Positions 1,248-41,205 of a stretch of 64,000 nt of DNA are shown here, in pieces (the first letter of the stretch is position 1; each line of letters starts with the position of its first letter). The notes beneath the pieces were generated by a model. It was not told the DNA's origin. It worked only from the letters and a program-made list of their open reading frames with translations, and did no database searches. The position numbers and the translations under genes are program-made. Origin of the DNA: Caldisericia bacterium (GTDB taxonomy: Bacteria; Caldisericota; Caldisericia; JAAYUI01); NCBI GenBank assembly GCA_017999835.1, contig JAGNLA010000009.1:6378-70377 (forward strand). The letters run 5' to 3'.

Positions 1248-1261
1248 TTAACATTGATTCT

Positions 1262-6700: not shown

Positions 6701-6731
6701 TATTACCATTAACAGTGCTACCTTGAACTCT

Positions 6732-10448: not shown

Positions 10449-11466
10449 AGGCCTCCATTATCTTTGTTTCAATCTGGTTCATTACTTCTGGTCTCTTGGA
10501 AAGCTCTTCTCTGGCGTTGTCTCTGCCTTGTCCAAGCCTGTCGCCACTATAGCTGAACCATGTTCCACTCTTTTCAATGACTCCAAGGTCAACACCCAAC
10601 GAAAGCAGCTGCGATTCTCTGCTGACACCATGTCCAAAGATCAACTCAAAACTGCAACTGTGGTATGGCGGTGCAACCTTGTTTTTGACAACCTTCACCT
10701 TGACTTCAGAACCATAAATCCTGTCGCCGTCTTTCATGGACTCGCCACGTCTGACCTCAAGCCTGATGGTTGAATAGAACTTTAGGGCTCTTCCGCCTGT
10801 GGTTGTTTCAGGGTTTCCAAACATAACACCGATTTTTTCACGGATCTGGTTGATAAATATTCCGCATGTCTTGCTCTTGCTCATGGCGCCGGTGAGTTTT
10901 CTCATGGCTTGACTCATCAGCCTTGCCTGGAGGCCCATCACTGAGTCGCCCATTTCACCTTCAAGTTCCGCTCTTGGGACAAGGGCAGCAACCGAGTCGA
11001 TGACAAACAGGTCAATTGCTCCAGACCTTGTTAGGATTTCTGCGATTTCAAGCGCCTGCTCGCCTGAGTCAGGCTGCGATATGATCAAATCGGCAAGATT
11101 GACGCCGAGTCTTTCGGCATAGGATGGATCAAGTGCGTGTTCGGCGTCTATAAACACTGCCTTGCCGCCCTGTTTTTGACAAGCAGCGATGGTTGTCAGA
11201 GCTACGGTTGTTTTACCCGAACCCTCGGAGCCGTAGATTTCAACAATTCGACCCCTTGGCATACCACCGACACCAAGCGCAATGTCAAGTGAGATAATGC
11301 CTGTCGGGATGATCTCGACTGCCATTCTGCCATGACCATCGCCAAGCTTCATGACTGTGCCTTTGCCGAACTGCTTTTCAATAGAGGCAATCGCTGATTC
11401 TAAAGCCTTTTCCCTTTCGGTGTTGGCGGCGGCAGCAGCGTTTGATGCGTTTGTGCCTTTCTCCAT
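10402..11466 (-). CDS. recA: Recombinase RecA
   Basis: [74 protein letters not shown]. Start at 11466 or 11472. Confidence 0.99.
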
Positions 11467-12020
11467 TAGCATTCTCCTTCAAGATTCCTCTGCCAGAGAG
11501 GAGTATATATGGACCCTGACGGGTTCAGTTCAGATTTTATTAACTCCAAAGAAATAAAATGTTGGTTTTGCGGTGGTTTTGGAAGACTTTCAAGTGTTTG
11601 TTCCAAATTGCTTGGCTTGGAGTCTTTAATTCTTGCCAAGGTCAAATGACCGACAAAAGCTTTATCCTCTAACTCATAACCAAATGAATTTGCTATTTGG
11701 TCAACATTTTTAGCTAATTCGGCAAGATTGTTTGATTCAACGCCATACCAGACAACCCTTGGGTTTGCCATTTTGGGGAAAACACCAGGTTTTGTAAACG
11801 TAAAAGGCATCGATTTAAGAGATAAAGTTTCTAGTTTTTTTGAAATCTGCGGCACTAATGAATCGTCGGTGTCGCCTAAAAATTTTAGTGTAAGATGAAA
11901 ATTTGTCGGTTTGGTAAACGATGCTTCCATACCGGATTTTTTAAGTTTCAAAACACAATCTGAAAGGAACTGCCTCGATTCTTCCGGCAGTGTGAGGGCG
12001 ATGAAGGTTCTAAGCTTCAA
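11466..12020 (-). CDS. thpR: RNA 2',3'-cyclic phosphodiesterase (2H family, LigT-like)
   Basis: RTFIAL, two HxT motifs (FHLTLKFLG and GHLTLAR), LIKSEL.P.G.IY. TTG 12020 follows a GGAGAGG site. Confidence 0.92.
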
Positions 12021-22615: not shown

Positions 22616-22645
22616 AAACCGCCCTTCATAAATGAAGGGCGGTTT
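22616..22645 (-). terminator. Intrinsic terminator after array member 1
   Basis: AAACCGCCCTTCAT-aa-ATGAAGGGCGGTTT inverted repeat 19 nt past the stop at 22665. Confidence 0.75.
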
Positions 22646-22664
22646 GTATTTTACGTATTCAGCG

Positions 22665-25600: not shown

Positions 25601-25994
25601 CTGCATAGACCTTACCAATATCTTTTTCTTCCTGGTTGTTGTATTTTTTGAAATACGCATCATTTGGAATGAACCTCTGATTTTCCTTCTGGCCTGTGAT
25701 TGCTGGAAGTCCATCGCAGATAGAGTCAACAACTTTCTGTGGATCTGTTGTTGATGCAGCTTCATCGATGGGGAACCACATCTTGAGCCAGTCGTGTATC
25801 TTTATGTTTACATTGTATCTCATGTAAACCTTGAAAGCTGTTAGAGTATTTGCTCTTGCAGCAGAAAGTCTGGGCTTTATCATGTTCAACTCAACGTGAA
25901 CTGGGCCAAGGGTTGCATTAATCGTTGGAATGGTCGTCAGAGCCAATCCAAAAACTAAAGTCAGAGTGATTGCGATTTTAATAATCTTCCTCAT
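22665..25994 (-). CDS. Large secreted Ig-like-repeat surface protein with stalk domain (array member 1, 1109 aa)
   Basis: Signal peptide, conserved family N-terminus LGPVHVELNMIKPRLSAARAN, three ~125-aa repeats (FP.GT..P...AGI.NP..G.Y), Ig-like domains (LKEGPNVIEFIARDQAC) and a stalk domain (TYMPIAEI, LPFRWFAENL). Confidence 0.85.
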   Translation of the reverse strand: MRKIIKIAITLTLVFGLALTTIPTINATLGPVHVELNMIKPRLSAARANTLTAFKVYMRYNVNIKIHDWLKMWFPIDEAASTTDPQKVVDSICDGLPAITGQKENQRFIPNDAYFKKYNNQEEKDIGKVYAVKDEKGATEFDPCNDCNKDSLPAWSSVCDSSFGKMRMIKDPSGLGCWQLGTIFPGLPRDQTQRMDRMKTIIRSTSIGYSPCSECQGYPIIINNCKERSYQVNTPLEIEAWRKGYNSIDINTSKTTGLIAPATPGRYRVAMATLPEPTPVESEAFMLPCSDISDVNVVLDPPDNDTVTTVSVNFKTGEGGALDGGSSTIMLRLPTSFTLPKKFPLKSIKINGAFVNSSPQVAAGEGYNQITIIVPTDIDNLGQGTITFLEKAGVKNPSASGENFAWVSSSSEPNNIKSAAYIVGVKPTVKVTPNFEKSTAAYYAVGMLPADVKIKAGATFTVNFPDTTMMPEKIDAKQVEINGKAYSGTVGIDKTKLTFTAAAEIAGTLKVKINAQAGIRNPVPGTYKLTFTVDGKEYDFESFEIVKSKPLITELELGDYQGSVVSSYKFKYQPSAGGELSPGDNLYVEFPEGTVVPATINTDAVTICDKPVKEVTVNGMKVTLVTDSSCKPFEWSMVDFKNNAGIKNPRKHGSYTLLVSTDKDEAIKSEEYVLEPAPLKSWIYFKDPDKPNCGEWFNKPPILGFECLNPEAKITFWFNNQPDKAVIYGGESRLNPGSQRAKITWQAEFNGIKEEPQTVDFYLDTVLPPITITEPKTDKVTNKKTFTVEGERGFTEMLTDGDNEKYQVTDSVFVKVDGKEIQLLAGEIYETVNSGSVEFKFKHTVNNLKEGPNVIEFIARDQACNENVVKRTITLDTIAPNIEVVSPAPTDVLAPDDVVIIKVKTESTATVYINGSIANLESTEGDFGIFTLDHTVVDGVNTVEVSASDVAGNTTKKTITFTAKPKQTVIVLTIGKTAWTVNGIEQTPLKTAPATSFAKPHNVLNGNTYMPIAEIAVLLDCKVAWDAKEKKVTLTQIKANGSKKVLELWINKTKGKINGKEVTYNTKGTLYPAIINNKTCLPFRWFAENLDAKVDWNATAKQITLTYQK

Positions 25995-27301: not shown

Positions 27302-29284
27302 TTATTGATTCATCAATACAAATTCGATATAGTCATTTTTGCTCGTGCTCATGACAATCTCATCTTCAGCGCTAATTTCACTTGTCAATTCGATTATTGT
27401 TTTTATCTTTAATTTTGACATTTTTAAAACTGAAATAGGCGTTGGCACATCAAAAATTAACCTTTGACCATCAACTCTTGCAGACTGAGACAAGACCTGG
27501 TCAATTGTAATGTTGTCTGATTTGATAAGATTTGACAACTTAAAGGCTTTTGGAAACCTCAAAGACACCCAGTCCCCAACGTCAAGATTTCCAAATGATG
27601 ATGGTCTGAATTCAAATTCGATCGAAATTATCATATCGTTCCTTCTGACCACTTTCAGATTGGCAATTCTTGGCTTTGCGGCTTTGATGAAATAATCCAG
27701 CATTTCTGGCTTGCTCCCATTTATCGAAACCGCAAAATAATAAAAGCCGGTCGAAGGCGTGGTCAGTTTGGCCGACTCATCGATGTAAATCATAGCAACG
27801 CCTGTCAAAACCTCTGGAATGGTGAACTTTAAAATGTCGTTTGAGAATTCTGCTGGCTTTGTTAACGGTTTGCCATCCACCAAAACGCTCTTGCCATTTA
27901 TACTTCTGTCTTTTGAAAAACCGGTTGGAAATTTGATTGAGATTTCTGAGTTTTTGTCAACCTTGTCCATGGGGGTGGATATCGAAAAAGCCAAAGAGCA
28001 TGAAGTGAATTCCTCGTTTGGAACTATTTGGACACCTTTGACATCTAGCAGTTTTAAAGGTTCCGATCGCACAAACTCCGGCTCCGACGAGGTCATGACC
28101 TCGATAAAAACTTCTCCTCCGGTTGGCTTGATGCCAAGCAGGAACCGTTTGTCAAAAGATATTTTTGTTTCCGACATCGAATTGATGTTTACCGGAACGA
28201 TCATTGTCAATTCAAGATAATCGCCTTTGTTTTCAACAGTGGGGGAACCGAGTAAAATGCAGTTATTGATCATTATCATCTTTTTATTAGGAAGAACTGT
28301 CATTGACAGGTTTTTTGGAAAACGGACGGTAATTGTCGAAAGTTTTGCATCCAAAGCCCCACCTTCACCAGTTATAAACGTAATCTCAGGCGATTTTTCT
28401 TCGTCTGTTATTGTGAATCCTGAGCATTTGACATCTGAAACTTTCGAGCAGGGTAAAACATAGGCTTCAGACTCGACGGGTTCCGGTTCAGGAGTTGTTG
28501 CCACAGCAAGCCTGTATCTTCCTGGAGTAGCTGGTGAGATGATGCCAGTCTCAATCATTGAATCGTAGCTAAGAGCATTGTAACCTGCTCTCCAAGTTTC
28601 GACTTCCATAGTTGGCCTACAGATTATTGAGCGCTGAGCATCGTCGTTGACCAATCCAGGGTAGCCCATCTCATAGCACCAATGATACCCAACTCCTTGT
28701 CTTCTGCTTATTTTAATCAGTTTTTCTCCTCTCTTATCCCTGTCAATTGGCAAAGCAGGCATGATCGTTCCCATCAACCACCAGCCCAATCCTGATTCGT
28801 CCTTGACGGCACCGTTGCTGTCCTTTTGAAGCAGGTTCTCAATGAATTCATCCAGTTGCGCATCATTGCCAGGTTCAACAGCCCAATCAATGGCTCCGTT
28901 TGATCCTTCAATCTTATATAATTTATATATTGTTTTTTCTTTGGACTGGGGGTATTTCTTGAAATATTTTGAGTTTGGAAGAAACCTCGGCGATTCCAAT
29001 TCACCGTTGAGAGGAGGCAAACCTTCACAAATAGAACTTTTCAGGTTTTCGCTAACAATATATTCGCTTGTTGGATACCAAACCCTTATGGTGTCATGAA
29101 TCTTAATGTCTTTATTGAACCTAAAGGTAACACTCATTGCGTTTGCTTTGTTTGCCCGTGCAGGTTTGCCCAAATTCCAGTATGTCTTTAGGCTGATATT
29201 GACTGGTCCAACAACTGCTGAAACTGAGTTAGATATACAGGTCATTGCCAATAAAATGACAATAATTCTAATTGTCGTCTTCAC
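27302..29284 (-). CDS. Secreted array member 2 (660 aa, no stalk domain)
   Basis: GTG start after GGAGG, signal peptide, family motifs VGPV...ARANK, IKIHD, CEGLP, ESGLGWWLMGT and PATPGRYRLAVATTPEPEPVESE. Ends after the third Ig-like repeat. Confidence 0.8.
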   Translation of the reverse strand: MKTTIRIIVILLAMTCISNSVSAVVGPVNISLKTYWNLGKPARANKANAMSVTFRFNKDIKIHDTIRVWYPTSEYIVSENLKSSICEGLPPLNGELESPRFLPNSKYFKKYPQSKEKTIYKLYKIEGSNGAIDWAVEPGNDAQLDEFIENLLQKDSNGAVKDESGLGWWLMGTIMPALPIDRDKRGEKLIKISRRQGVGYHWCYEMGYPGLVNDDAQRSIICRPTMEVETWRAGYNALSYDSMIETGIISPATPGRYRLAVATTPEPEPVESEAYVLPCSKVSDVKCSGFTITDEEKSPEITFITGEGGALDAKLSTITVRFPKNLSMTVLPNKKMIMINNCILLGSPTVENKGDYLELTMIVPVNINSMSETKISFDKRFLLGIKPTGGEVFIEVMTSSEPEFVRSEPLKLLDVKGVQIVPNEEFTSCSLAFSISTPMDKVDKNSEISIKFPTGFSKDRSINGKSVLVDGKPLTKPAEFSNDILKFTIPEVLTGVAMIYIDESAKLTTPSTGFYYFAVSINGSKPEMLDYFIKAAKPRIANLKVVRRNDMIISIEFEFRPSSFGNLDVGDWVSLRFPKAFKLSNLIKSDNITIDQVLSQSARVDGQRLIFDVPTPISVLKMSKLKIKTIIELTSEISAEDEIVMSTSKNDYIEFVLMNQ

Positions 29285-31289
29285 TGTATGCCTCCTCGGT
29301 GCCGAGTGATTCATCAATGTTATCGCCTTTTGAGGTGGAAAGACACATCAGCTCGCTTCCAGTCAGATACTGTGGCAATCTCATGCCAATGCTGATTACA
29401 TACTTGTATTTGCCAGAAACGACTTGTTTGACCGGTGACTTAAAAATCAGTCTTGTGCCTTCGACTTTTGCATTTTCAACCTTAGCCTTGTCAACCGTAA
29501 TCCATTTCCTGTCCAATGATTTTGGCAGAATGAAACTTTGAGGAAACTGCAATGAAATCTCATCACCCAGGTCAAGATTACCAAAGGATGATGGCTGAAA
29601 ATCAAAAGTGACGTTGGCATAAGTATTGGGCTTTTTTGACGACATGACCAGATTCCCAATCCTGGCCTTGGCTGGCTGAATGTAGATGTCATCAAACGAA
29701 TATCTATCCGAGCCAATCTCAAGCTTTACCAAGTAAAAACCAACCGATGGATTAACGATGGCGCAATTTTGGAGAAGGGCGACAACCAGCTTGTTTTTGA
29801 TGTCTGAAGGTGCAGACATCTCAATGGTGTTACCCGAAATTTTTGGGTTAGTAGCAGGATGCACGCCGTTTATCAGAATGTCGTTGTTGGTGATTTTTTC
29901 GCCATGTGCAAAAGCCTCAGGCAAAATTATTTTGAGTGGCGTTTGAGGAGGATAAGTTTTGCCATTATCAAGCAAAAGCCTTATGCTAATGGTGCTTTCA
30001 CGGTATTCCTCAGGAGGTTGAATGGCTAAACTCGTTTCTTTCAGTTTCAGCAGCGCCTGGGATTTCACAAAATTTGGCTCGGAGGAAGTAGAAACCTCCA
30101 CAAAACAATCCTTCTCGTCCGGATTGTAGGTTGTGTGAGTAAAAATGTCAAAAACAACATCGACTTTTGAAGAATTGTTGACATCCACAGGTGAAACAAG
30201 TTTTACAACGGTCTGACCATCAATTTTTGTAATCTCTGGATCAGATTCTAGCCTTGTCCCGTTCACCTTTATTAGGCGTTTTGAGAACTTTGGGGATATT
30301 GAAAATTGCTCTGGCAACTTGACGAAAATGGTTGAATATTTGTTGTCCAGTGCTCCGCCTTCACCTGTCCGAAACGAGACCGTGAAAGGATTTTTAGTGG
30401 AAAAACCAAATTCTGTTGCGTTGCAAACAACATTGCTGACATCCGAGCACGGCAGGATGAATGATTCGGACTCAACTGGAACAGGTTCAGGCCTGGTTGC
30501 AACAGCTACACGGTAACGTCCGGGAGTGGCAGGAAAAACAATCCCAATATCTTTTGTCACATTGACATCAGCCACGTTATAGCCTTTCCTCCAGGGCTCG
30601 AGTTCAAAAGGATTGTTTACGGAAATTGATCTTTCTTTGCAATTGCTGTTAATATGATAGTTGATGGTTAAGCAAGCACATGGATAGCCAATATTGATGT
30701 GATACCTAATCTTTTTCATGAATTCTATTCTTTTTTCTACATCCCGAGGCAAGGCAGGCAAAACCGTTCCAAGCATCCAATATCCCAATCCTGATGAGTC
30801 TGATATTAACTTTGGACTTGAAGAATCAAGGTGACATGCATCGCGATTATCCGATTTCTCATCTTCAAGATCTATGAAACTGACTTCATGCATATGTTCT
30901 CCTGAAGCACGGTACAACTTACCAATCTCTTTTTCTGGTGAATCTGGGTATTTTTCAAAATAGGCTTTGTTGGGGACAAACCTTGGCGATTCAAGACCAC
31001 CAGTAATTTTTGGCAAGCCATCGCAGAAGTTTTTCTCCAGCTGTTCCTTAGTTTGATAAGACATGTTTTCGTCCAAAGGCAGCCAAACCTTAACCCAATC
31101 GTGAATTTTTATGTTTTTTGTGTACACAAAGCTAACCACGAAATTGTTGGCTGCATTCACCCTTGAAGAGCCAATGGTTTTATACCATCTGCCAAAATCA
31201 AGCTTCACCGGCCCAACAGTGGCCCTTCCCAAAGTTTGACTCCACAGAATAATCACCAGCGCAAGAGAAATGAGTACAATTCTATTCAT
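29268..31289 (-). CDS. Secreted array member 3 (673 aa, no stalk domain)
   Basis: Signal peptide, TVGPV, NIKIHDWVKVWLP, FCDGLPKI, SSGLGYWMLGT and PATPGRYRVAVAT.PEPVPVESESFILPCSD. Ends after the third repeat. Confidence 0.82.
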   Translation of the reverse strand: MNRIVLISLALVIILWSQTLGRATVGPVKLDFGRWYKTIGSSRVNAANNFVVSFVYTKNIKIHDWVKVWLPLDENMSYQTKEQLEKNFCDGLPKITGGLESPRFVPNKAYFEKYPDSPEKEIGKLYRASGEHMHEVSFIDLEDEKSDNRDACHLDSSSPKLISDSSGLGYWMLGTVLPALPRDVEKRIEFMKKIRYHINIGYPCACLTINYHINSNCKERSISVNNPFELEPWRKGYNVADVNVTKDIGIVFPATPGRYRVAVATRPEPVPVESESFILPCSDVSNVVCNATEFGFSTKNPFTVSFRTGEGGALDNKYSTIFVKLPEQFSISPKFSKRLIKVNGTRLESDPEITKIDGQTVVKLVSPVDVNNSSKVDVVFDIFTHTTYNPDEKDCFVEVSTSSEPNFVKSQALLKLKETSLAIQPPEEYRESTISIRLLLDNGKTYPPQTPLKIILPEAFAHGEKITNNDILINGVHPATNPKISGNTIEMSAPSDIKNKLVVALLQNCAIVNPSVGFYLVKLEIGSDRYSFDDIYIQPAKARIGNLVMSSKKPNTYANVTFDFQPSSFGNLDLGDEISLQFPQSFILPKSLDRKWITVDKAKVENAKVEGTRLIFKSPVKQVVSGKYKYVISIGMRLPQYLTGSELMCLSTSKGDNIDESLGTEEAYSEDDN

Positions 31290-31301: not shown

Positions 31302-34300
31302 CTATTTTGAGTACTTCAACGTTATTTGTTTTGTTCCTGAATCAAAACTTACTATCGTGCCAAGGTTTTCAGCCACAAACCTCAAAGGAACCATCGTCGT
31401 TCCATTGATTGCGACAAGACAAATCGAATCATTCTTTCCGATTTTCACCTGCTTGCCATTTACCAATGCGGTGCTTTTGCCCAGCCACATAATGATTGTG
31501 TTGATGATTTCATCGCCATTGCGCTGGAGAATTGTGACTGACTTGTCAATTTGGTTCCACTCAACGCTGCAACCAAGGAAAGGCGCCAAAGGCTTGAACG
31601 GAACAAATGTTGTGCCATTAAGTGCTTTCAACTTCACATCCTTGAATGTGGCTGTTGGCGCACAAACAAGCTTTGGCTGTTTTTCAAAGTTCACATCCCA
31701 TGAAGGTTTGTCGAGAGTGAGATTGATTGTGTTTGTACTTGTTGAGGCAAAGACAATTTCTTTGGTTGTGGTGTTACCTGCAAAGTCGGTTACTTTCAAA
31801 ACAATCCTGTTTTTGCCTTGCACGACAGAATACATTGTGTAGAAAATCGAGGTTTTCCCATCGTTTGACTCCTCGGGTATAACTTTATTATTGCAATAGG
31901 CGTACATACCACGCTCAGTTTTGAATGACACTTTCACAAGGTCACCTGGAAAACATTTGTATGATTGAGGACAAGAAACCATTTCGATTTGTGGTGGGGT
32001 TGTGTCGAGAATTATTTTCAAGTGCCTGATTGTTTCGTTGCATGCCAGGCTCCTGGCAACAACTTCAACTTTGTTTAATCCAAGGTTAAGTGGGAGTTTA
32101 TAGGAATAATTCAAATCTCGTTTGTCAAATTCGGTTTTTTTAACCAAACCGCCTTCAAAAACACGTTCTTCATTTCCATTAAACCTTACAAAAACAGAGT
32201 CAATCAGCACATACGACTGTTCGTCGCCAAAATAGGAAACAATCCTTGCCTCTGCCTGGCCAGACAAGATTTTTATTGGCTGATTTGTTATTGTAGAGGA
32301 TCTGTTGGAAAGACGAATATATGGTCTGTCAGTATCCAGAAACAAATCTTGAGATTTTGGCTCTTCTTTGTCACCATTAAAAGACGAACTCCAGCCAATG
32401 TTTATAACCTCGCATTCAGGCATAAGATTGAACGCTCCATCAAACAGCTTTGCCTTGTCCAGCTGCCCGTTGTACCAAAAGAAAATATCCGCCTCAGGAT
32501 TGAGACATTCAAAAGATATTGTTGGTGGATATCCATACCACCCACTTTCGCAGGGATTTGGCTGCTGATTGTTGACAATCAGTTTTGTCACAAGCGGCGC
32601 AGGAATCAGCGTCAGTTTGTCAGAAATAGCCTGTATCCCATCCCTTGTTCTGACTTTGATGAAATAGTCGTCTTTTTCACGTGGGTTTGTCACAAAACAC
32701 TTAAGCTGAACCCTTGCCGGTTTCCAAAAATCAATAACTCTGGTTAAGGTTATCCAGATTGTTCGATCCTCTGTTCGAACTGATTTTGCTTTAGCACTGT
32801 CAATACTAACTTCCTCTGCCAAAACCTGATAGGGGAGAGTTGAACCTTTTGGAAACTCGACACCGATTTCTTCTCCTGATTTTATTGGTTTTTGCGATGA
32901 TGGCCTAAAGATGAACGAAACCTCGGTAGACATTGCAGCTTGCTGTTTTGAAAGCTCAAGTTGATAAATGTGCGACTTTGAGGCGAATATGTCAAACGGT
33001 TCGCTGTCGATATCATCATCTCCAACTTTTACTTCGAAATCGTAAATGCCAGTCTGAGGACTGACAATTCCGGCCTTGCTTGAGATCGAAACAATGCATT
33101 TCTTTGAAAGTTCAAATTGGGATTTCAATGTGATTGTTCTTTTTTCTTTGTCGATTACAACATCAGAATCGAGACCGTTGACTTGGAAACAACCTAGCTT
33201 GGGTTTGTCCGGGAGAACAAATCCATTGTCAAAAGTAATTTCTATCTCGGTTTTTTGCTGATAAACCTTCCCGTCTCTTAGAGGTAGAGTCAAGAATATA
33301 TCGGCGTTTGCATACTCTTCGGCTGGATACAAAACCATTCTGGCTGTTTTAGAATCCTCAACTTCTTCGGCTTTGATGAAGTTGCCTTCAGAGCTTGTTG
33401 AAACCATTATCTCGTTATTGTTTCTTTCCAGAATGGAGAAGAAGCTTGGGTTGGAAAGAAAATCCACCTTCACTTTTCCAAAATTATCAACATCGACAGG
33501 CGATGTTATCTCCAATATTTGTTGACCATCACTGGTGTTGGTAGTTTTTGCCTGCTTGACGACAACGTCATTGACGAGAATATTCTTAAATGGGACACTT
33601 GTCATGCTAAAACCTTTTGGCAGTTTCAGCTTTATTGTCGACATCCCCTTGTCCAAAGCCCCGCCTTCACTTGTCATAAAACTGACTGAAAAAACCGTAA
33701 ACTGCTTTCTGATTGGGAATTGTTCAAAAGTAACATCAGATATATCCGAGCAAGGCAAAATGAACGATTCAGACTCGACTGGCTCAGGTTCGGGTTCTGT
33801 TGCCACAGAAACCCTGTATCGGCCAGGGGTTGCGGGTGCAACAATGCCTGTATATGAAGAAGTGTTCAAATCAATCGAGTTATAGCCTTTCCTCCAAGCT
33901 TCAACCTCTAGCGGTGCAATAAAATTCAGCATTCTTTGAGTACAGGTGCTTGTCATCGAGAATGGCTGACAATCACAGGGGTTGTAACCGATTGAAATTG
34001 ACATGCCAATCCTCCGGCTCCATTCTTTTCTTTCTGTGTCGTCCACAGGTATTGCCGGCATCACTGTTCCAAGCATCCAACAGCCCAAACCTGAAGGATC
34101 TTTTACTATTCTCCGTTTGTTGTCTTTCTCGCCACAAACATCACTCCAGTCGGCAGCACCTGACGGTTCGGGGTTGTCGTAAAGAATCCCAGGTTTGTTA
34201 TACTCAGCTACTGTAAAAAGTTGTCTTTTTGTTGCCAATTTCGAATTGGGATATTTCTCGAAAAACTTCTTGTTTGGCAGAAATCTTGGATTATCGATGT

Positions 34301-34589
34301 TTTCATCAATTTTTGGTAAACCATCACAGATGTTTTTGAGCAAATCCTCAGGATTGGCGTATTCAACCGCTTCAGACGACGGAAACCAAACCTTTATCCA
34401 GTCATGAATTTTGATGTTTACATTATAACGCATATAAACCTTGAAGCTTGTCACCTGGTTTGCTCTGGCATGGGAATATTTTGGCTTTATCATATTCAGC
34501 TCAACTCTGACCGGGCCAACTGTTGCCATCGCAGGAATGGCTGATATTGTCATTGCAACAAGAATCGCAACCGCCAAAAGTTTCCGCAT
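31302..34589 (-). CDS. Secreted array member 4 (1095 aa, with stalk domain)
   Basis: Signal peptide, family N-terminal motifs, repeats, Ig-like domains and stalk motifs TFVPFKPL and TTMVPLRFVAENLG. Confidence 0.85.
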   Translation of the reverse strand: MRKLLAVAILVAMTISAIPAMATVGPVRVELNMIKPKYSHARANQVTSFKVYMRYNVNIKIHDWIKVWFPSSEAVEYANPEDLLKNICDGLPKIDENIDNPRFLPNKKFFEKYPNSKLATKRQLFTVAEYNKPGILYDNPEPSGAADWSDVCGEKDNKRRIVKDPSGLGCWMLGTVMPAIPVDDTERKEWSRRIGMSISIGYNPCDCQPFSMTSTCTQRMLNFIAPLEVEAWRKGYNSIDLNTSSYTGIVAPATPGRYRVSVATEPEPEPVESESFILPCSDISDVTFEQFPIRKQFTVFSVSFMTSEGGALDKGMSTIKLKLPKGFSMTSVPFKNILVNDVVVKQAKTTNTSDGQQILEITSPVDVDNFGKVKVDFLSNPSFFSILERNNNEIMVSTSSEGNFIKAEEVEDSKTARMVLYPAEEYANADIFLTLPLRDGKVYQQKTEIEITFDNGFVLPDKPKLGCFQVNGLDSDVVIDKEKRTITLKSQFELSKKCIVSISSKAGIVSPQTGIYDFEVKVGDDDIDSEPFDIFASKSHIYQLELSKQQAAMSTEVSFIFRPSSQKPIKSGEEIGVEFPKGSTLPYQVLAEEVSIDSAKAKSVRTEDRTIWITLTRVIDFWKPARVQLKCFVTNPREKDDYFIKVRTRDGIQAISDKLTLIPAPLVTKLIVNNQQPNPCESGWYGYPPTISFECLNPEADIFFWYNGQLDKAKLFDGAFNLMPECEVINIGWSSSFNGDKEEPKSQDLFLDTDRPYIRLSNRSSTITNQPIKILSGQAEARIVSYFGDEQSYVLIDSVFVRFNGNEERVFEGGLVKKTEFDKRDLNYSYKLPLNLGLNKVEVVARSLACNETIRHLKIILDTTPPQIEMVSCPQSYKCFPGDLVKVSFKTERGMYAYCNNKVIPEESNDGKTSIFYTMYSVVQGKNRIVLKVTDFAGNTTTKEIVFASTSTNTINLTLDKPSWDVNFEKQPKLVCAPTATFKDVKLKALNGTTFVPFKPLAPFLGCSVEWNQIDKSVTILQRNGDEIINTIIMWLGKSTALVNGKQVKIGKNDSICLVAINGTTMVPLRFVAENLGTIVSFDSGTKQITLKYSK

Positions 34590-34593
34590 GATT

Positions 34594-34727
34594 CCCCCCT
34601 ATTTTGGATAAGTCAGCGTTATCTGTTTGGTTTTGGCATCGAAGACGACACTGGCGCCGAGGTTTTCAGCCACAAACCTGAGCGGAAGCATGGTTTTGCC
34701 GTTTATTGACACTGGATAAAGCGTTCC
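34594..34727. repeat. 134-bp near-identical direct repeat, copy 1 (3' end of member 5)
   Basis: Matches 37898..38031 at 133 of 134 positions by manual comparison. Confidence 0.9.
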
Positions 34728-37700
34728 CTTTGGGTCGATGTTGACGGTTTTCCCATCGATCTTAGCTTTTGTTTTTTCAAGCCAAAGCTCGATGATTTTC
34801 TTCTCATTGTTTCTCAATTTTTGTTCTAGAGTAACTTTCTTTTCTTTTACATCCCAGAAAACAAGGCTGTCAAAGAAAGGTACCAATTGCGCAACCGGCA
34901 TGTATGTGCTACCGTTCAAATCCTTATATCTGCTGTCTTTGAAAGTTGCAGTTGGAGGAACTGCAAGTGGTGTCTGGACTTTGCCATTGACCATCCATTC
35001 TTTTTTGTCGAGTGTCAGGACGATGATGGTTTTCTTTGGCTTTGCTACAATTTTGTAGCTGAGGCTGCGATTGTTACCAGACTGGTCGGTCACGGCAATG
35101 CTAACAATATTGTCGCCTTCGACAAGACTTATGTTGGCAGAGAAAACCCCAACTCCATCTTCTGACGAAATGATCTCGGCAGACATTCCGTTTATCTGCA
35201 CAGTCGCGCTTGCCTCAGTTCTGATAAGAACATTGACATTGTCGCCATCAATAAATATTTCATCATTTTTTGGGCTCACCATTTCAGCTTTTGGCGGTTG
35301 TGTGTCTAGTGTTATCTTCTTTTTCACCACTGTTTCGTTGCATGCCTGGTCGCGGCCTATTATTTCAACAATGTTTTCTCCTTCATTCAGTTGGATGACA
35401 TGGTCGAATTTGTATTTTATTGAGCCTGAATTTTTTGTTTCATATATTTGGCCTTCCAGCAACAAGGTTTCTTTACCATTGAATTTTACAAAGATTGAAT
35501 CGGTTGCCTGATACTTATTATTGTCCCCATCGGTAAGCATTTCGGTAAAACCGCGTTCGCCTTCAATTTTATAGTTTTTATGGTTTGTCATCTCACCTGT
35601 TTTAGGTTTTGTCACTCTTACCGACGGCGGCATGGTATCCAGATTGAAATCATAAGCCCTTGGCTCCTCTTTTACTCCATTAAACTCTGCCTGCCAGGTT
35701 ATGACTGTTCTCATGGAACCTGGGTTGAGCCTTGATTCGCCACCGTAGATAACGGCTTTGTCTGGCTGGTTATTAAACCAGAATGTTATTTTTGCTTCTG
35801 GGTTCAGACAGTCAAAACCTAGAATTGGTGGTTTGTTGAACCAATCACCACAGTTTGGCTTGTCCGGGTCCAAAAAGTATATCCAAGATTTGAGTGGGGC
35901 TGGTTCGAGGACATATTCTTCAGAAACCATCGGCTCAGCCTTGCCAATGATAACTTTGAGAGTATATGAACCGTGTTTTCTAGGATTTTTTATGCCAATG
36001 TCGATGGAAACATCAACTGGTTTGGCTGATGTAATCTCAACTGGAGTCGCAATAGTCAGCGTTGTTGAGTCAGCCTTGGCCGAAATGGTTTTCTTCCGAT
36101 TGACGGTTATATCTGCGATATCAAAGCTTTTTGGCAAGACCGTCCCCTGAGGAAACTCCACCATGAAAGTATCGCCAACTGACAACGGGGTTTGCGAAGG
36201 AGCCACTAAACTGAAGAAATATTTGGACTCTACACTCCCCTGGTAGTCTGACAATTCGAGAAGCGTTATTAAACCAACTGATGGCTTTATCTCAAACTCT
36301 CCGCAACCGTAGCTGCCAGAAGGAGTAGTCAACGTTATGGAGTGTGTGCCAGCTTTTGGGTTTCTGATTCCAGCATTTTTGTTAATTGTGATCTGGACAT
36401 AGTACTGGATGTTTGCCGGTATCGTGATTTTCAAAGAGTTGCCGTCAATATCTATGTGTTTTGCCCTCAAACCTGAAACATAGACGTTACCAGGTTCCAT
36501 TGTTTTTGGGAACTTGAAACCTTCAGAAAAATTCAAGCTTATGACCGATCCGGCTTTCAAAATTTCGCCATCCGGAAGAATCGCTCTGCAAAAAATGGAT
36601 GAATACTTGTATTCGTGATCAGGGGTCACAACGGCCAATGGCGTGGAACCAAGTGCCACCGGTTTTGAACTGATGTAGTTAGGCTCAGAAGTGGTTGAAA
36701 CTTCTATCGATATTGGTTTTTTTGAAGGTATGACTCTGATGTTTGTTGAGCTCGAAAACTCAATCGAGGTCTGACCAAAGTTCGCCACGTCCGTCGGAAC
36801 AATTATCTTGATTACCGTTCCGTCTGCGCTTTTCTCGACTTTGGGTGATGAACTGACGAAAGCGCCGTTGAACTTTATCGATTTTTCTGGAAACTTGTCC
36901 GGAGCGAATATGCCAGGCGGGAACTTGATATTGACCACTGACGATCCGCCGTCCAGCGCTCCACCCTCGCCAACTTTGAAGCTAACATTCAATATTGTCT
37001 CGGCATTATTGTTTGGATAATCCTGAAGCACAACATCGGACACATCAGAGCAAGGAAGCACGAAGGCTTCCGACTCCACAGGTACAGGTTCAGGTTCGGT
37101 GGCAACGGCTAGCCTGTACCTGCCAGGAGTAGCCGGGGCGATGATGCCGGTGGTTTTGGAAGTGTTGAAATCGATTGAGTTGTAGCCTTTTCGCCAAGCC
37201 TCTAATTCTACTTCTTCAAAATATGTCAATGTTGCTTGTTTGCAGCTATTCTCAAGCAATACATATTCACAACCACAGGAGCTGTAACCAAGCAACACTG
37301 AACGGTAGACAGTTCTCATCCTTTTGCTTCTTTGATCCTTGTCATAAGGCATTGGTGGAAATATTGTTCCCAACATCCAACAGCCTAGACCAGACGGATC
37401 CTTGACCAATCTGAGATTTTTGGTATCTCCTCCACAAACATCATGCCAATCTTTGACATTATCCAAATCTGGTAATTTGAAGAATTCAGCATTACTGTAG
37501 TAGTCAAGAATCTTGTAAAACGTGCTGTAATCTTTGAGTTCTGAGTTTTCATATTTTTTAAAATACTTTTCATTTGGCACAAATCTGGGGTGTTCCCTCA
37601 CACCGGTTATTGGAGGCAGACCATCACATATCTGCCTGATAACCTCTTCCGGGTTGTCCGACTGGATGCTTTCATAAATCGGAAACCAGACTTTTAGCCA

Positions 37701-37889
37701 ATTATGAGCCTTTATATTGACATCGTATCGTATATATATCTTGAACGCTGTAAGGGAGTTCGCCCTTGCTGCTGAAAGCCTCGGTTTTATCATGTTCAGT
37801 TCTACATGTATTGGCCCAAGTACGGCAAAGGTTGCCGCCGTGTTCCCAAAAACAATCACCAACACCAGCAATAGTAATATTTTCTTCAT
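34599..37889 (-). CDS. Secreted array member 5 (1096 aa, with stalk domain)
   Basis: Same architecture as members 1, 4 and 6; ends KTMLPLRFVAENLGASVVFDAKTKQITLTYPK. Confidence 0.85.
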   Translation of the reverse strand: MKKILLLLVLVIVFGNTAATFAVLGPIHVELNMIKPRLSAARANSLTAFKIYIRYDVNIKAHNWLKVWFPIYESIQSDNPEEVIRQICDGLPPITGVREHPRFVPNEKYFKKYENSELKDYSTFYKILDYYSNAEFFKLPDLDNVKDWHDVCGGDTKNLRLVKDPSGLGCWMLGTIFPPMPYDKDQRSKRMRTVYRSVLLGYSSCGCEYVLLENSCKQATLTYFEEVELEAWRKGYNSIDFNTSKTTGIIAPATPGRYRLAVATEPEPVPVESEAFVLPCSDVSDVVLQDYPNNNAETILNVSFKVGEGGALDGGSSVVNIKFPPGIFAPDKFPEKSIKFNGAFVSSSPKVEKSADGTVIKIIVPTDVANFGQTSIEFSSSTNIRVIPSKKPISIEVSTTSEPNYISSKPVALGSTPLAVVTPDHEYKYSSIFCRAILPDGEILKAGSVISLNFSEGFKFPKTMEPGNVYVSGLRAKHIDIDGNSLKITIPANIQYYVQITINKNAGIRNPKAGTHSITLTTPSGSYGCGEFEIKPSVGLITLLELSDYQGSVESKYFFSLVAPSQTPLSVGDTFMVEFPQGTVLPKSFDIADITVNRKKTISAKADSTTLTIATPVEITSAKPVDVSIDIGIKNPRKHGSYTLKVIIGKAEPMVSEEYVLEPAPLKSWIYFLDPDKPNCGDWFNKPPILGFDCLNPEAKITFWFNNQPDKAVIYGGESRLNPGSMRTVITWQAEFNGVKEEPRAYDFNLDTMPPSVRVTKPKTGEMTNHKNYKIEGERGFTEMLTDGDNNKYQATDSIFVKFNGKETLLLEGQIYETKNSGSIKYKFDHVIQLNEGENIVEIIGRDQACNETVVKKKITLDTQPPKAEMVSPKNDEIFIDGDNVNVLIRTEASATVQINGMSAEIISSEDGVGVFSANISLVEGDNIVSIAVTDQSGNNRSLSYKIVAKPKKTIIVLTLDKKEWMVNGKVQTPLAVPPTATFKDSRYKDLNGSTYMPVAQLVPFFDSLVFWDVKEKKVTLEQKLRNNEKKIIELWLEKTKAKIDGKTVNIDPKGTLYPVSINGKTMLPLRFVAENLGASVVFDAKTKQITLTYPK

Positions 37890-37897
37890 ACTCTCAG

Positions 37898-38031
37898 CCC
37901 CCCTATTTTGGATAAGTCAGCGTTATCTGTTTGGTTTTGGCATCGAAGACAACACTGGCGCCGAGGTTTTCAGCCACAAACCTGAGCGGAAGCATGGTTT
38001 TGCCGTTTATTGACACTGGATAAAGCGTTCC
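37898..38031. repeat. 134-bp near-identical direct repeat, copy 2 (3' end of member 6)
   Basis: Matches 34594..34727; the single difference is gacGac versus gacAac. Confidence 0.9.
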
Positions 38032-41000
38032 TTTGGCGTTGTACTTGACCTCCTTGCCGTCAATCCTGGCAACCGTTTTGTTGAGCCAGCATTCAATGAC
38101 TTTGGCGTTGCCATTTGGAAGATGCTGATTGAGTATCATCTTCTTTTCCTTTGCGTCCCATTCAGTTGTGCAGTTAAGAAGATCTGCGATATCCCTAATT
38201 GGCATATAGGTTGTGCCATTTAGGGCTTTGTGCCTTAGATCAGTGAACTTGCTGGTTGGAGGTGTCGTTAATGGGTACTGAGCCGCACCGTTGACTGTCC
38301 ATTCTTTTTTGTCGAGTGTCAGAACTATGACGGTTTTCTTTGGCTTGGCTGTGATTACCAGGTTCATGGATGTGGTGTTGCCACACACGTCTTTTGCGCT
38401 GACTACAAAAATGTTTTTTCCGGCATCGAGTGTGACGTTGGCAGAAAATATTCCAGTATCGCCTTCGGTAGACTCAATTACTGCCAATGTTTTGTCGATA
38501 TAGACCATTGCGTTTGCTTCGGTTTTCACCCTTATTGTAGTTGAATCGCCTTCGGTAAAAACCTCATTCTCTTTTGGACTGAGGACTTCAAACCTTGGCG
38601 GTTCGGTGTCTAGCGTGATGACTCTTTTTATTATCGTTTCGTTGCAAGCCTGGTCACGTGCAATCACCTCGATTACGTTTGGACCTTCCTTGAGAGTGAT
38701 GGTATGCTGAAATTTATACTCGATTGAATCTTGATCTTTGGTCTCGTAGATTTCACCTTGCAGAAGCTGGGTTTCCTTACCTTCAAACCTTACAAACACT
38801 GAATCGGTTACCTGGTACTTCTCATTGTCGCCATCGGTGAGCATTTCGGTAAAACCGCGTTCGCCAGAAACAAAAAAAGAACTTGAGGATGTGCTGGCAT
38901 TCGATTTTGGGTAATTCAATGTCAATGGCGGAGTGACAGTGTCAATGTTCAAATTGTAGGTTTGTGGCTCTTCCTTAACACCGTTGAACTCTGCTTGCCA
39001 TGTGATTTTTGCTCTCTGAGAGCCTGGCATGAGTCTGGCTTCTCCACCGTAGGTTACAGATTTGTCTGGCTGGTTATTAAACCAGAATGTTATTTTTGCA
39101 TCAGGATTCAGGCAGTCAAAACCTAGAATTGGTGGCTTGTTGAACCAGTCACCACAGTTTGGTTTGTCCGGGTCTAAAAAGTATATCCAAGATTTGAGTG
39201 GTGCTGGCTCGAGAACGTATTCTTCAGAAACCATCGGCTCTCCCTGGTCAACATAAACTTTCAAATTGTACGAACCGTGTTTTCTTGGATTTTGTATGCC
39301 GATGTCGATGGAAACATCGGCCGGTTTGATGGAAGTAATTTCGATTGGTGTGGCAATGGCAAGCGTTGTTCCATTAACGCCTGTCGATATTGCGGTTTTG
39401 CCGCCAACTGTCACCTTGGCAAGATCAAAATCCCTTGGTAAAATCGTTCCTTCCGGGAACTCCACCCTGAAAATGTCGCCAACAGCCAGTTGAGCTTGAG
39501 ATGATGGGGTCAACTTGAACGAATACTTTGATTCCAAACTGCTTTGGTAGTTTGAGAGAACGAGGTTTGACACCAATCCCTTAGTCGGTATTATCTCGAT
39601 CTGACCACAATCATAAGTGTCTTTTGGAGTGGTTATCGAGAATGAATACGTGCCAGCTTTGGGGTTTGTGACCCCGGCCTGGGCGCGCACGGTTATGGCG
39701 ATAAAATATTCAACATCTGTCGGGAGCGTGATTTTGAAGGTGTTTCTCTCAACGGCGAGGGCTTTTGTCGGTACGCCCATAACACTGACGTTTGCAGGTA
39801 TGATGCTTGCTGGAAGCTTGAAACCTTCAGGAAAATTCAGCTTTATGTCTGTTCCGACTTTCAGCTTTTCTCCATCAGGCAGAGGGGTCCTACAGGAGAT
39901 GAAGGAATTTTTGTATTCTTCGTTGGGAGTGACCACTGTCGTGGGGGTCGACGCAAGGGCAAGCGGGGCAGATTTGATGAAATTCGGTTCTGACGATGTT
40001 GAAACCTCAACAACCAACGGATCTCTTGTCAGCTTGCAGGCAATACCGGAATTGGAAAGAAACTCGATTTTTGCCTTGCCAAGGTTGTTTACATCGGTTG
40101 GGCAGACAATTGACATTTCAGCAAAACCTACGCTTTGCGTGATCTCAGGAGGGCTTTGTACAAATGCCCCGTTGATTTTGATTGATTTTGCTGCAAATCT
40201 CTTTGGAATGACAAATGTTGCCGGCAACTTGAGCATGATTGTTGAGCTACCGCCATCCAAGGCTCCGCCTTCTCCGGTTTTGAAGTTGACCGTCAAAGCA
40301 TTGCTGGAATTGTTCATGAGGTTGTCCTCAAGTGTGACATCTGAAACATCCGAGCATGGCAGGATGAAGGATTCCGACTCCACAGGCACGGGTTCAGGTG
40401 TCGTCGCCACAGCAAGCCTGTACCTACCAGGAGTCGCTGGACCGATGATGCCAGTGGTTTTTGATGTGTTAATGTCAATTGAGTTATATCCTTTTCTCCA
40501 AGCCTCGACTTCCAATGGGGTGTAAAGCAACAATGACCTTTCAATACAATTATTGATTACTCGAGGATAACCGGAGCAGATGCCACATGGCGAATACCCA
40601 ATTGACGTCGATGAGTCAAGAGACTCTAACGCCTTCTTCCTGTCTTTGTCATCAAATGGCATGGCTGGCATAATCGTTCCAAGCATCCAGAATCCTAATC
40701 CTGAAGGATCTTTAACAACCCTAGGTATTGATTTACCTATATTGCATATATCGCCCCAATTTGTCACATTTTCTGATGCTGGTATATTGTAGAATTCTCC
40801 ATATCCTTTCTCGCCAGTTATTGCATACATCTTTCCAGTTTTTTTTAATTCTAGATTGTCAAACTTTTTAAAATATTCTTCGTTTGGGACAAACCTTGGA
40901 TCGGATATCTTTTCATCGATTTTTTGAAATCCATCGCATATTTTACTTGCGATTTCTTCTGGATTGTCTGTTAAACCATTTTCATCTATAGGAAACCAAA

Positions 41001-41205
41001 TTTTGAACCAATCATGAATTTTTATGTTTACATTATACCTTATGTAAACTTTGAATGCCGTAATCCGATTCGCCCTTGCTGCTGAAAGCCTCGGTTTTAT
41101 CATGTTCAATTCGACACGTATCGGACCAAGTGTTGCAAAAACCGGTGATACAAAAGCTATCGAAAGAATCAAAGCTGTAACCAAAATACCCAATTTGCCC
41201 TTCAT
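37903..41205 (-). CDS. Secreted array member 6 (1100 aa, with stalk domain)
   Basis: ATG 41205 (MKGKLGILVTALILSIAFVSPVFA signal peptide, AAAGGGG RBS). Same architecture; its C-terminus is identical to that of member 5. Confidence 0.85.
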   Translation of the reverse strand: MKGKLGILVTALILSIAFVSPVFATLGPIRVELNMIKPRLSAARANRITAFKVYIRYNVNIKIHDWFKIWFPIDENGLTDNPEEIASKICDGFQKIDEKISDPRFVPNEEYFKKFDNLELKKTGKMYAITGEKGYGEFYNIPASENVTNWGDICNIGKSIPRVVKDPSGLGFWMLGTIMPAMPFDDKDRKKALESLDSSTSIGYSPCGICSGYPRVINNCIERSLLLYTPLEVEAWRKGYNSIDINTSKTTGIIGPATPGRYRLAVATTPEPVPVESESFILPCSDVSDVTLEDNLMNNSSNALTVNFKTGEGGALDGGSSTIMLKLPATFVIPKRFAAKSIKINGAFVQSPPEITQSVGFAEMSIVCPTDVNNLGKAKIEFLSNSGIACKLTRDPLVVEVSTSSEPNFIKSAPLALASTPTTVVTPNEEYKNSFISCRTPLPDGEKLKVGTDIKLNFPEGFKLPASIIPANVSVMGVPTKALAVERNTFKITLPTDVEYFIAITVRAQAGVTNPKAGTYSFSITTPKDTYDCGQIEIIPTKGLVSNLVLSNYQSSLESKYSFKLTPSSQAQLAVGDIFRVEFPEGTILPRDFDLAKVTVGGKTAISTGVNGTTLAIATPIEITSIKPADVSIDIGIQNPRKHGSYNLKVYVDQGEPMVSEEYVLEPAPLKSWIYFLDPDKPNCGDWFNKPPILGFDCLNPDAKITFWFNNQPDKSVTYGGEARLMPGSQRAKITWQAEFNGVKEEPQTYNLNIDTVTPPLTLNYPKSNASTSSSSFFVSGERGFTEMLTDGDNEKYQVTDSVFVRFEGKETQLLQGEIYETKDQDSIEYKFQHTITLKEGPNVIEVIARDQACNETIIKRVITLDTEPPRFEVLSPKENEVFTEGDSTTIRVKTEANAMVYIDKTLAVIESTEGDTGIFSANVTLDAGKNIFVVSAKDVCGNTTSMNLVITAKPKKTVIVLTLDKKEWTVNGAAQYPLTTPPTSKFTDLRHKALNGTTYMPIRDIADLLNCTTEWDAKEKKMILNQHLPNGNAKVIECWLNKTVARIDGKEVKYNAKGTLYPVSINGKTMLPLRFVAENLGASVVFDAKTKQITLTYPK

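What the first reader, a model, noticed from the sequence alone, without database searches (positions are those of the whole stretch)
34594..41108. Patchwork of near-identical DNA between otherwise diverged paralogs (gene conversion or shuffling signature)
Seen: the 3' ends of members 5 and 6 match at 133/134 nt (34594-34727 versus 37898-38031), including synonymous sites, while the adjacent stalk sequence differs extensively. A 40-nt stretch is identical near their 5' ends (37759-37798 versus 41069-41108). A ~100-nt block (ccgtagataacggctttgtctggctggttattaaaccagaatgttat...) is nearly identical between member 1 (~23807-23909) and member 5 (~35741-35843), 12 kb apart, and is largely shared with member 6 (~39061). 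Inference: recent RecA-type exchange between copies. Conserved blocks flanking variable tips could swap tips between stalks. No site-specific recombinase lies in the window.
Basis: partly seen in the sequence, partly recalled or inferred. Interest (0 to 1): 0.62.

Follow-up and report, generated by a model that had tools for sequence, protein, structure and literature searches.

The report
Gene conversion among tandem surface-protein genes
Six neighbouring, anciently diverged genes for large secreted surface proteins of an uncultured wastewater bacterium have recently copied short stretches of DNA into one another, which is a real but well-known way for bacterial surface-gene families to evolve.

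Summary
The stated matches are 133/134, 40/40, 100/103 and 94/103 nt. All 18 exact direct repeats of 20 nt or more in the 64-kb window lie in or beside the paralog array. The paralogs are otherwise ancient: codon identity at conserved residues is 0.38-0.48, and the value expected at saturation is 0.37-0.39. Silent-site identity rises to 40/41 in the m5/m6 3' tract and 30/32 in the m1/m5 central block (permutation p<0.001). A control block with about 90% protein identity keeps only about 50% silent identity.

In the central block, m1 is closer to its paralogs m5 and m6 than to its own orthologs in two related genomes. Elsewhere the orthologs are closer by 15-30 points. Independent metagenome assemblies from at least four studies rebuild the array and break only at these tracts, so assembly collapse is excluded. 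A related genome shows its own, different set of tracts. Two close relatives differ by a replaced gene body whose breakpoints lie inside the conserved gene ends.

No recombinase or reverse transcriptase is in the window, and recA is. The best reading is short-tract homologous gene conversion, as in Helicobacter bab/hom genes. It is a new member of a known kind, of modest interest.

The parts
22665..25994 (-). member 1 (m1), 1109 aa. It stands alone with its own terminator, has a 1:1 ortholog (73% aa) in related genomes, and has the highest contig depth in a metatranscriptome.
27302..29284 (-). member 2 (m2), about 660 aa, lacks the C-terminal half. No significant conversion tract.
29268..31289 (-). 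member 3 (m3), 673 aa, lacks the C-terminal half. No robust tract (best p=0.024, uncorrected).
31302..34589 (-). member 4 (m4), 1095 aa, the most diverged full-length member. No conversion tract with any other member.
34599..37889 (-). member 5 (m5), 1096 aa. AF2 model (pLDDT 85.6): signal peptide, N-terminal head of about 270 aa, chain of beta-sandwich domains, C-terminal Cu_amine_oxidN1 domain.
37903..41205 (-). member 6 (m6), 1100 aa from the ATG at 41205.
34594..34727 (-). 3' tract, m5 copy: the last 42 codons of the Cu_amine_oxidN1 domain, the TAG stop and the GGGGG ribosome-binding site of the next gene. It is 133/134 identical to the m6 copy. The upstream breakpoint is sharp.
37898..38031 (-). 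3' tract, m6 copy. In Logan assemblies it is a separate 134-nt unitig, deeper than all or most of its flanking contigs.
35715..35939 (-). Central block B, m5 copy (residues about 651-725). 35757-35939 matches m6 at 169/183. 35715-35876 matches m1 at 148/162, with a core of 100/103. The two tracts overlap but have different end points.
23781..23942 (-). Central block B, m1 copy. Here m1 is closer to m5 and m6 (86-94%) than to its orthologs (75-86%).
39061..39243 (-). Central block B, m6 copy.
37759..37798 (-). 5' tract, m5 copy (start of the mature protein, ELNMIKPRLSAARAN). It is 40/40 identical to m6. The family is conserved here anyway, so support is marginal.
41069..41108 (-). 5' tract, m6 copy.
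10402..11472 (-). recA (context only): the general recombinase is encoded 11 kb from the array.
   Evidence: PF00154, E=2.4e-130

Best explanation
The array holds six old paralogs of one family of secreted surface proteins. Each has a signal peptide, an N-terminal head of about 270 aa with no Pfam match, and a chain of Ig-like beta-sandwich domains. Four of the six also carry a C-terminal Cu_amine_oxidN1 domain. Their synonymous sites are saturated, so the duplications are ancient. On this old background lie a few young tracts of about 40-190 nt. In these tracts one copy has been overwritten from another by non-reciprocal homologous recombination, that is, short-tract gene conversion.

Shown: the tracts are real, and they are statistically clustered at silent sites. 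They are specific to this genome, and different tracts occur in a relative. They have distinct end points, so several events took place. They involve only the more similar members m1, m5 and m6.

Inferred: exchange starts in the best-conserved segments, the only places with enough identity for strand pairing. Those segments are the central Cys-containing module and the C-terminal anchoring domain. This keeps them homogenised while the rest diverges. The host's general RecA pathway is assumed to do the work, because no dedicated recombinase is present.

The same conserved gene ends also serve as crossover points when whole gene bodies are replaced between strains, as seen in two close relatives.
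For: Exact identities were checked.

Silent sites. Background codon identity at conserved residues is 0.38-0.48, against 0.37-0.39 expected at saturation. It is 40/41 in the m5/m6 3' tract and 30/32 in the m1/m5 block, both p<0.001 by permutation. m5/m6 have three to four further, weaker tracts (p=0.006-0.044). The control block GPATPGRYR...ESE has about 90% protein identity and only about 50% codon identity. dS is saturated over most of the gene and dips at the tracts.

Orthologs. m1 clusters with X_g1109/Y_g1110 at 100% bootstrap in the 5' 660 codons and in codons 760-1070. In codons 690-750 it clusters with m5/m6 (79%).

The 3' tract is not a conserved nucleotide element. m4 is 70% identical there, and the adjacent genes of relative Y are 65% identical.

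Relative Y has nine significant tracts of its own at other positions.

X and Y (MatE 98% aa) are collinear at 92% except for a replaced 2.5 kb vs 5.8 kb body. Its breakpoints lie 345 nt into the first gene and 404 nt before the end of the last.

Logan contigs of runs from at least four studies rebuild the array with 0-2 differences. They break only at the shared tracts.

recA is present. No recombinase, invertase or reverse transcriptase was found.
Against: The AU test on the 183-nt central block does not reject the ortholog topology (p=0.10). The phylogenetic evidence for that block is therefore suggestive only, and its support rests mainly on the silent-site test. The central block is also conserved at about 80% nucleotide identity across the family and across genomes, so part of its similarity is constraint. 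The 40-nt 5' tract is marginal on its own. Donor and recipient cannot be told apart, because m5 and m6 have no orthologs. RecA dependence is untested. The sharp upstream edge of the 3' tract lies next to sequence that is only about 50% identical, which would fit template switching as well as RecA-mediated exchange.
Confidence: 0.85

Rival explanations
1. No exchange took place. The near-identical blocks are simply the most constrained parts of the proteins, with codon choice or an embedded RNA or translation-coupling signal also constrained.
For: The central block is about 80% identical at nucleotide level across all family members in three genomes. The 3' tract ends exactly at the stop codon and ribosome-binding site of the next gene.
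Against: The most conserved protein block (about 90% aa identity) has only about 50% silent identity. The 3' ends of m4 (70%) and of the adjacent gene pair in relative Y (65%) are not conserved at nucleotide level, although they share the same operon layout. Silent-site clustering has p<0.001. Tracts show no special GC3 content.
Confidence: 0.04
2. Assembly artefact: a metagenome assembler collapsed or threaded similar paralog segments, or mixed strains, creating false identity.
For: The window comes from a metagenome-assembled contig. The longest tract (134 nt) is close to typical maximum k-mer sizes. Strain variants exist in some samples.
Against: Logan contigs of runs from separate studies (X1, X4, X5, X6, X2) all show the same four junctions into one shared 134-nt unitig. 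That unitig is deeper than all (X1) or most (X4) of its flanking contigs. X2 reproduces the 19-kb array with 0-2 differences per contig, and contig ends fall only at the claimed tracts.
Confidence: 0.03
3. The copying is real but RecA-independent. It arises by template switching or copy choice during replication between tandem copies 3.3 kb apart, or by misaligned recombination with DNA from another strain.
For: The upstream edge of the 3' tract is sharp and sits beside sequence only about 50% identical. The copies are adjacent and in the same orientation. Inter-strain replacement clearly occurs in relatives.
Against: The m1/m5 tract joins genes 12 kb apart, across an oppositely oriented gene. 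Tracts lie where pre-existing identity is highest, as expected for homology-dependent pairing. Nothing here discriminates directly.
Confidence: 0.12
4. The array is a programmed variation system. The strongly transcribed m1 would be the expression copy, m2-m6 a reservoir, and the conserved blocks in-register recombination anchors, as in pilE/pilS, vlsE or Campylobacter fetus sap.
For: m1 has 5-10 times the metatranscriptome contig depth of m4-m6, and m2/m3 have none (a poor measure of expression). m1 shares a young tract with m5. The array between MatE and the lipoprotein gene turns over between relatives while m1 is kept.
Against: All six genes have their own start codon, signal peptide and ribosome-binding site, so none is a silent cassette. 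There is no dedicated recombinase. No chimeric joints appear in any run, though contigs hide rare variants. m1 is 73% identical to its orthologs along its whole length, so it has not been repeatedly rewritten. Only one short m1 tract is detected.
Confidence: 0.08

Closest known systems
Helicobacter pylori babA/babB(/babC) and homA/homB outer-membrane protein paralogs
   Same: The paralogs have divergent bodies, but their 3' segments are more alike within a strain than between strains (concerted evolution). This is attributed to RecA-dependent intragenomic gene conversion that yields chimeric genes (review PMC3960876, read, citing Pride & Blaser 2002). Here too the clearest tract is the 3' end, and copy number and gene content vary between relatives.
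   Different: The protein family, phylum and lifestyle are unrelated (free-living wastewater/sludge bacterium). The genes here are tandem, not dispersed. Tracts are much shorter (40-190 nt). No phase-variable repeats were seen, and no functional consequence is known.
Concerted evolution of prokaryotic paralogs in general (e.g. tuf, rRNA operons; PMC6053082)
   Same: [quoted passage not shown]
   Different: Those cases homogenise whole genes over long times. Here only small islands are homogenised in otherwise saturated paralogs.
Cassette-based antigenic variation (Neisseria pilE/pilS, Borrelia vlsE, Campylobacter fetus sap S-layer genes, Treponema tpr)
   Same: Segmental, non-reciprocal copying between members of a surface-protein gene family, using conserved blocks as homology.
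   Different: There are no silent or promoterless cassettes, no dedicated cis element or recombinase, and no evidence of high-frequency switching. All copies look expressible. (The properties of these systems are from my own knowledge.)
Fibrillar adhesin-like surface proteins with Cu_amine_oxidN1 (PF07833) domains
   Same: Signal peptide, terminal globular domain, chain of Ig-like domains, and C-terminal PF07833 domain.
   Different: The N-terminal 660 residues match no Pfam family and no solved structure by sequence. The function and the binding partner are unknown.

Membership tests
Intragenomic gene conversion / concerted evolution between paralogs | Identity at synonymous sites is clustered in tracts instead of being uniform along the genes | tested here: met
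   Permutation of silent sites: m5/m6 40/41 and m1/m5 30/32, both p<0.001. Background 0.38-0.48, close to the saturation expectation of 0.37-0.39. dS profile.
Intragenomic gene conversion / concerted evolution between paralogs | In the tract, paralogs of one genome are closer to each other than to their orthologs; outside it the reverse holds | tested here: inconclusive
   By identity the feature is met: m1 vs m5 89-94% and vs m6 86-88%, against 75-86% for the orthologs in columns 681-740, with orthologs ahead by 15-30 points elsewhere. The tree groups m1 with m5/m6 at 79% bootstrap. The AU test on 183 nt gives p=0.10. m5 and m6 have no orthologs, so the 3' tract cannot be tested this way.
Intragenomic gene conversion / concerted evolution between paralogs | The tracts are real in the organism, not an assembly product | tested here: met
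   Independent Logan assemblies of at least four studies show the same junctions and a shared unitig.
Intragenomic gene conversion / concerted evolution between paralogs | Non-reciprocal transfer by the general homologous recombination machinery (RecA) | not testable with these tools
   recA is encoded in the window. Direction and enzyme dependence need genetics.
Programmed cassette variation (pilE/pilS, vlsE, sap type) | Silent, promoterless or 5'-truncated donor cassettes beside one expression site | tested here: not met
   All six genes start with their own start codon, signal peptide and ribosome-binding site. m2 and m3 are truncated at the 3' end, not the 5' end.
Programmed cassette variation (pilE/pilS, vlsE, sap type) | Chimeric variants co-existing within a population | tested here: inconclusive
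   No true joints appear in seven runs. The joints listed there are paralog cross-mapping. Contigs drop rare variants, so raw reads were not examined.
Site-specific shufflon/invertase systems and diversity-generating retroelements | A recombinase/invertase, or a reverse transcriptase with a template repeat, near the variable genes | tested here: not met
   Pfam scans of all sizeable window ORFs found none. Differences between copies affect all four bases.
PF07833 Cu_amine_oxidN1 domain proteins | Match to the Pfam model above its gathering score | tested here: met
   m1, m4, m5 and m6 score 57-73 bits against a cut-off of 24.2. m2 and m3 lack the domain.

The most novel reading that the evidence does not exclude
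The array is a working reservoir for varying the cell's main coat protein. m1, the strongly transcribed copy kept in all relatives, would occasionally receive segments from the fast-turning-over m2-m6 genes through the conserved in-register blocks. This would give a free-living Caldisericota-like bacterium a surface-variation system aimed at phages or grazers, not at an immune system.
Probability: 0.08. Interest if true: 0.6.

Novelty: new member of a known kind. Interest (0 to 1): 0.3.

Why it matters
It documents, with ortholog controls and independent samples, that homologous exchange shapes a large uncharacterised surface-protein family. The lineage is a poorly known, uncultured one, probably Caldisericota, that is common in wastewater and sludge. 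The conserved central module and the C-terminal domain are kept alike between copies while the rest diverges to saturation. This marks those two parts as the likely shared-function (anchoring or assembly) modules and the remainder as the specificity-bearing parts. The mechanism itself is textbook, and earlier notes of this scan describe many similar mosaic arrays in other genomes, so the finding adds a case and no new principle.

Tried and rejected
Other paralogs elsewhere in the genome could not be surveyed.
- A GENECONV-like permutation over all polymorphic sites gave p=0 for m1/m5, m1/m6 and m5/m6. I do not rely on it, because it is confounded by uneven protein constraint. The silent-site version is the test used.
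- blastn self-comparison filtered by percent identity missed the tracts, because they are embedded in long low-identity alignments. It was replaced by an exact k-mer scan.
- The AU topology test on the central block was not significant.
- Positive selection: sliding NG86 dN/dS never exceeds 1 (maximum about 0.6), so no diversifying-selection claim is made.
- GC-biased conversion: GC3 is not enriched in the tracts.
- The genome-contig scan with RecA, meant to name the organism, returned only distant phyla at about 60% identity. Cluster look-up gave no names.
- Sequence search of PDB and Foldseek against PDB gave only generic Ig-chain matches.
- The literature search for this family in Caldisericum found nothing relevant.
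Full report
**What is there.** Six co-oriented minus-strand genes form an array:
- m1: 22665-25994
- m2: 27302-about 29284
- m3: 29268-31289
- m4: 31302-34589
- m5: 34599-37889
- m6: 37903-41205

One oppositely oriented lipoprotein gene lies between m1 and m2. m1, m4, m5 and m6 are about 1,100 aa and end in a Cu_amine_oxidN1 domain (PF07833, 57-73 bits). Weak Glucodextran_B/Big_13 matches lie just before that domain. m2 and m3 (about 660-673 aa) stop before that half. The first 660 residues match no Pfam family.

An AlphaFold2 model of m5, built on 35 homologs, has mean pLDDT 85.6. It shows a signal peptide, a mixed alpha/beta head (about residues 24-290), a long chain of beta-sandwich domains and the C-terminal domain. 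Foldseek against PDB returns only generic Ig-chain proteins: titin, the PrgB Ig-like region and complement MG domains. A profile search of PDB sequences finds nothing specific. These are therefore secreted, fibrillar surface proteins of an uncharacterised family.

The flanks are housekeeping genes: Mfd, RNase Y, recA, Lon, ClpX/P, trigger factor, MatE, OTC and TyrRS.

**Checking the observation.** All four stated matches are exact as described: 133/134, 40/40, 100/103 and 94/103. The genes as a whole are only 57-64% identical in nucleotides among m1, m5 and m6, and 42-51% for pairs that involve m2, m3 or m4. The window has 18 exact direct repeats of 20 nt or more. Seventeen of them join array members and one joins the neighbouring PF07833 gene to m4. 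Shuffled windows have none.

The 3' tract has a sharp upstream edge. Identity is complete from ...GGAACGCTTTATCC to five bases past the stop codon (TAG GGGGG, the next gene's ribosome-binding site). Directly upstream it falls to about 50%.

**Is it more than constraint?** I compared codons only where both proteins have the same degenerate amino acid.
- Across pairs the background fraction of identical codons is 0.38-0.48. The value expected from the genes' own codon usage at full saturation is 0.37-0.39. The paralogs are therefore ancient.
- Against this background the m5/m6 3' tract has 40/41 identical codons and the m1/m5 central block has 30/32. Both have p<0.001 in 1,000-5,000 permutations.
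- After masking, m5/m6 show further, weaker tracts: columns 681-729 (36/43, p=0.025), 457-504 (20/22, p=0.006), 781-820 (20/23, p=0.042), and the 40-nt 5' stretch (11/11, p=0.044). The 5' stretch is thus only marginal on its own.
- The key control is the family's most conserved protein block (GPATPGRYR...PVESE, about 90% amino-acid identity). It keeps only about half of its codons identical.
- A sliding Nei-Gojobori estimate gives saturated dS over most of m5/m6. It dips at columns 451-480, 616-720 and 766-800 and at the 3' end. dN/dS never exceeds about 0.6.
- m4, m2 and m3 take no part.

**Ortholog control.** Syntenic arrays were fetched from related genomes: X (GCA_964472265) and Y (GCA_964639885, identical over the array to a JGI contig). 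W denotes the genome of this window. The divergences are:
- W to X: ClpP 90%, trigger factor 82% and MatE 72% amino-acid identity.
- X to Y: MatE 98%.

m1 has a clear ortholog (73% aa). m4, m5 and m6 have none. In 40-codon windows m1 is 15-30 points closer to its orthologs than to any paralog along nearly its whole length. The exception is columns 681-740, where it is 89-94% identical to m5 and 86-88% to m6, against 75-86% to the orthologs.

Segment trees agree with this. m1 groups with its orthologs at 100% bootstrap for columns 1-660 and 760-1070. For columns 690-750 it groups with m5 and m6 at 79%. The AU test on that 183-nt block does not reject the ortholog topology (p=0.10). The reverse constraint on the 5' segment is rejected (p=6.5e-5). 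The phylogenetic evidence for the central block is therefore suggestive only, and the silent-site evidence carries the case.

The nucleotide view shows overlapping tracts with different ends. m5 equals m6 from about column 667 to 729, and m5 equals m1 from about 688 to 743. From column 744 on, m5 is unique while m1 and m6 agree. Several separate events are needed to explain this.

**Not a conserved nucleotide element.** In the last 40 codons m5/m6 are 99% identical. m4 is only 69-70% identical to them there, and the adjacent pair Y_g1083/Y_g1094 is 65% identical. Genome Y has its own tracts at other positions. Five occur between g1083 and g1094, two between g1083 and g1098 and two between g1094 and g1098, all with p<=0.01. 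Patchy homogenisation is thus a general, lineage-independent habit of these arrays. The central block is a hot spot in both genomes.

**Exchange of whole bodies between strains.** X and Y are collinear at about 92% identity, with one exception. X positions 5100-7643 (2.5 kb, most of one gene) stand where Y has positions 811-6599 (5.8 kb, most of two genes). The breakpoints lie 345 nt into the first gene and 404 nt before the end of the last, inside the conserved 5' part and the Cu_amine_oxidN1 domain. It comes from relatives, not from this window.

**Not an assembly artefact.** The organism is present in more than 15 public wastewater, sludge and biofilm runs. In Logan contigs of runs from four studies, the flanks of both copies run 30 nt into a single 134-nt unitig. 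That unitig is deeper than all of its flanking contigs in X1 and than most of them in X4. In run X2 the whole 19-kb array is reproduced with 0-2 differences per contig. Contig ends fall only at the shared tracts:
- 23835/23880
- 34623/34698
- 35769/35814
- 37788/37769
- 37927/38002
- 39090/39070
- 41098/41079

. No genuine chimeric joints were seen. The joints listed are paralog contigs that cross-map onto conserved blocks, or effects of the window edge. Contigs cannot show rare variants.

**Mechanism.** No integrase, invertase or reverse transcriptase is encoded in the window. Differences between copies involve all bases, which rules out a DGR-type pattern. recA lies at 10402-11472. The most likely mechanism is ordinary homology-dependent, non-reciprocal exchange that starts in the few segments still alike enough to pair. 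RecA dependence and the direction of transfer are inferred. Template switching between the tandem copies cannot be excluded, especially for the sharply bounded 3' tract. GC3 is not raised in the tracts.

**Comparison with known systems.** The closest described parallel is Helicobacter pylori babA/babB and homA/homB. Their 3' segments show intrastrain similarity (concerted evolution), attributed to RecA-dependent intragenomic recombination that produces chimeric genes (PMC3960876). The general definition of concerted evolution is in PMC6053082.

The array differs from pilE/pilS, vlsE or sap-type systems in that it has no silent cassettes and no dedicated element. Earlier notes of this scan list many mosaic tandem surface-gene arrays in other genomes. 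That lowered my estimate of how surprising this one is.

**Verdict.** The finding is a new member of a known kind, of modest interest.

Noticed in passing
L004:5100-7643 versus L005:811-6599: Two close relatives (MatE 98% aa) differ by a replaced segment: one gene body of 2.5 kb versus two gene bodies of 5.8 kb. The breakpoints lie inside the conserved 5' part of the first gene and the C-terminal domain of the last. The X body is under 60% identical to anything in Y, so it was imported rather than formed by fusion.
   Followed up: partly
window 22638-25947 (m1), compared with 6000-41900: In a metatranscriptome (run X18, contigs only) m1 has word depth 41-66. Trigger factor has 19-26, ClpP about 15, recA about 6, m4-m6 1-8 and m2/m3 0. 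m1 may be the main expressed coat protein. Contig depth is a poor measure of expression.
   Followed up: partly
window 22638-24297 versus 24690-25947: The strain in run X18 differs from the window by 4/1660 nt in the 3' half of m1 but by 33/1288 nt in the 5' part. Most of the differences are spaced by multiples of three, as third-position changes would be. This is a roughly tenfold jump in divergence within one gene and suggests recombination between strains.
   Followed up: no
L004:8047-10953; L005:6997-9912: In both relatives one family member is split into a 187/188-aa ORF (signal peptide plus the start of the head) and a 756/773-aa ORF that begins near the ATPGRY block. It is probably a disrupted copy kept in both genomes.
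   Followed up: no
window 36417-36557 (m5) versus 39721-39861 (m6): Codons for conserved residues are nearly all identical (20/22), yet they are interspersed with codons that differ at 1-3 positions, so nucleotide identity is only 68%. dN/dS is about 0.5-0.6, among the highest in the gene. This may be an older conversion tract followed by fast protein change, or chance (p=0.006, uncorrected).
   Followed up: partly
window 41205 versus 41376: The longest ORF of m6 starts at a TTG at 41376, which would overlap the divergent MatE gene start (41357). The ATG at 41205 gives a signal peptide that aligns with the other members and is the likely true start.
   Followed up: partly
window 21288-22547 and 61197-63896: Two further secreted proteins carry the same C-terminal Cu_amine_oxidN1 domain. 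A 20-nt exact match links 21355-21374 to m4 (31375-31394).
   Followed up: no
window 10402-11472: recA lies 11 kb from the array. The position is syntenic housekeeping context and carries no special meaning.
   Followed up: yes
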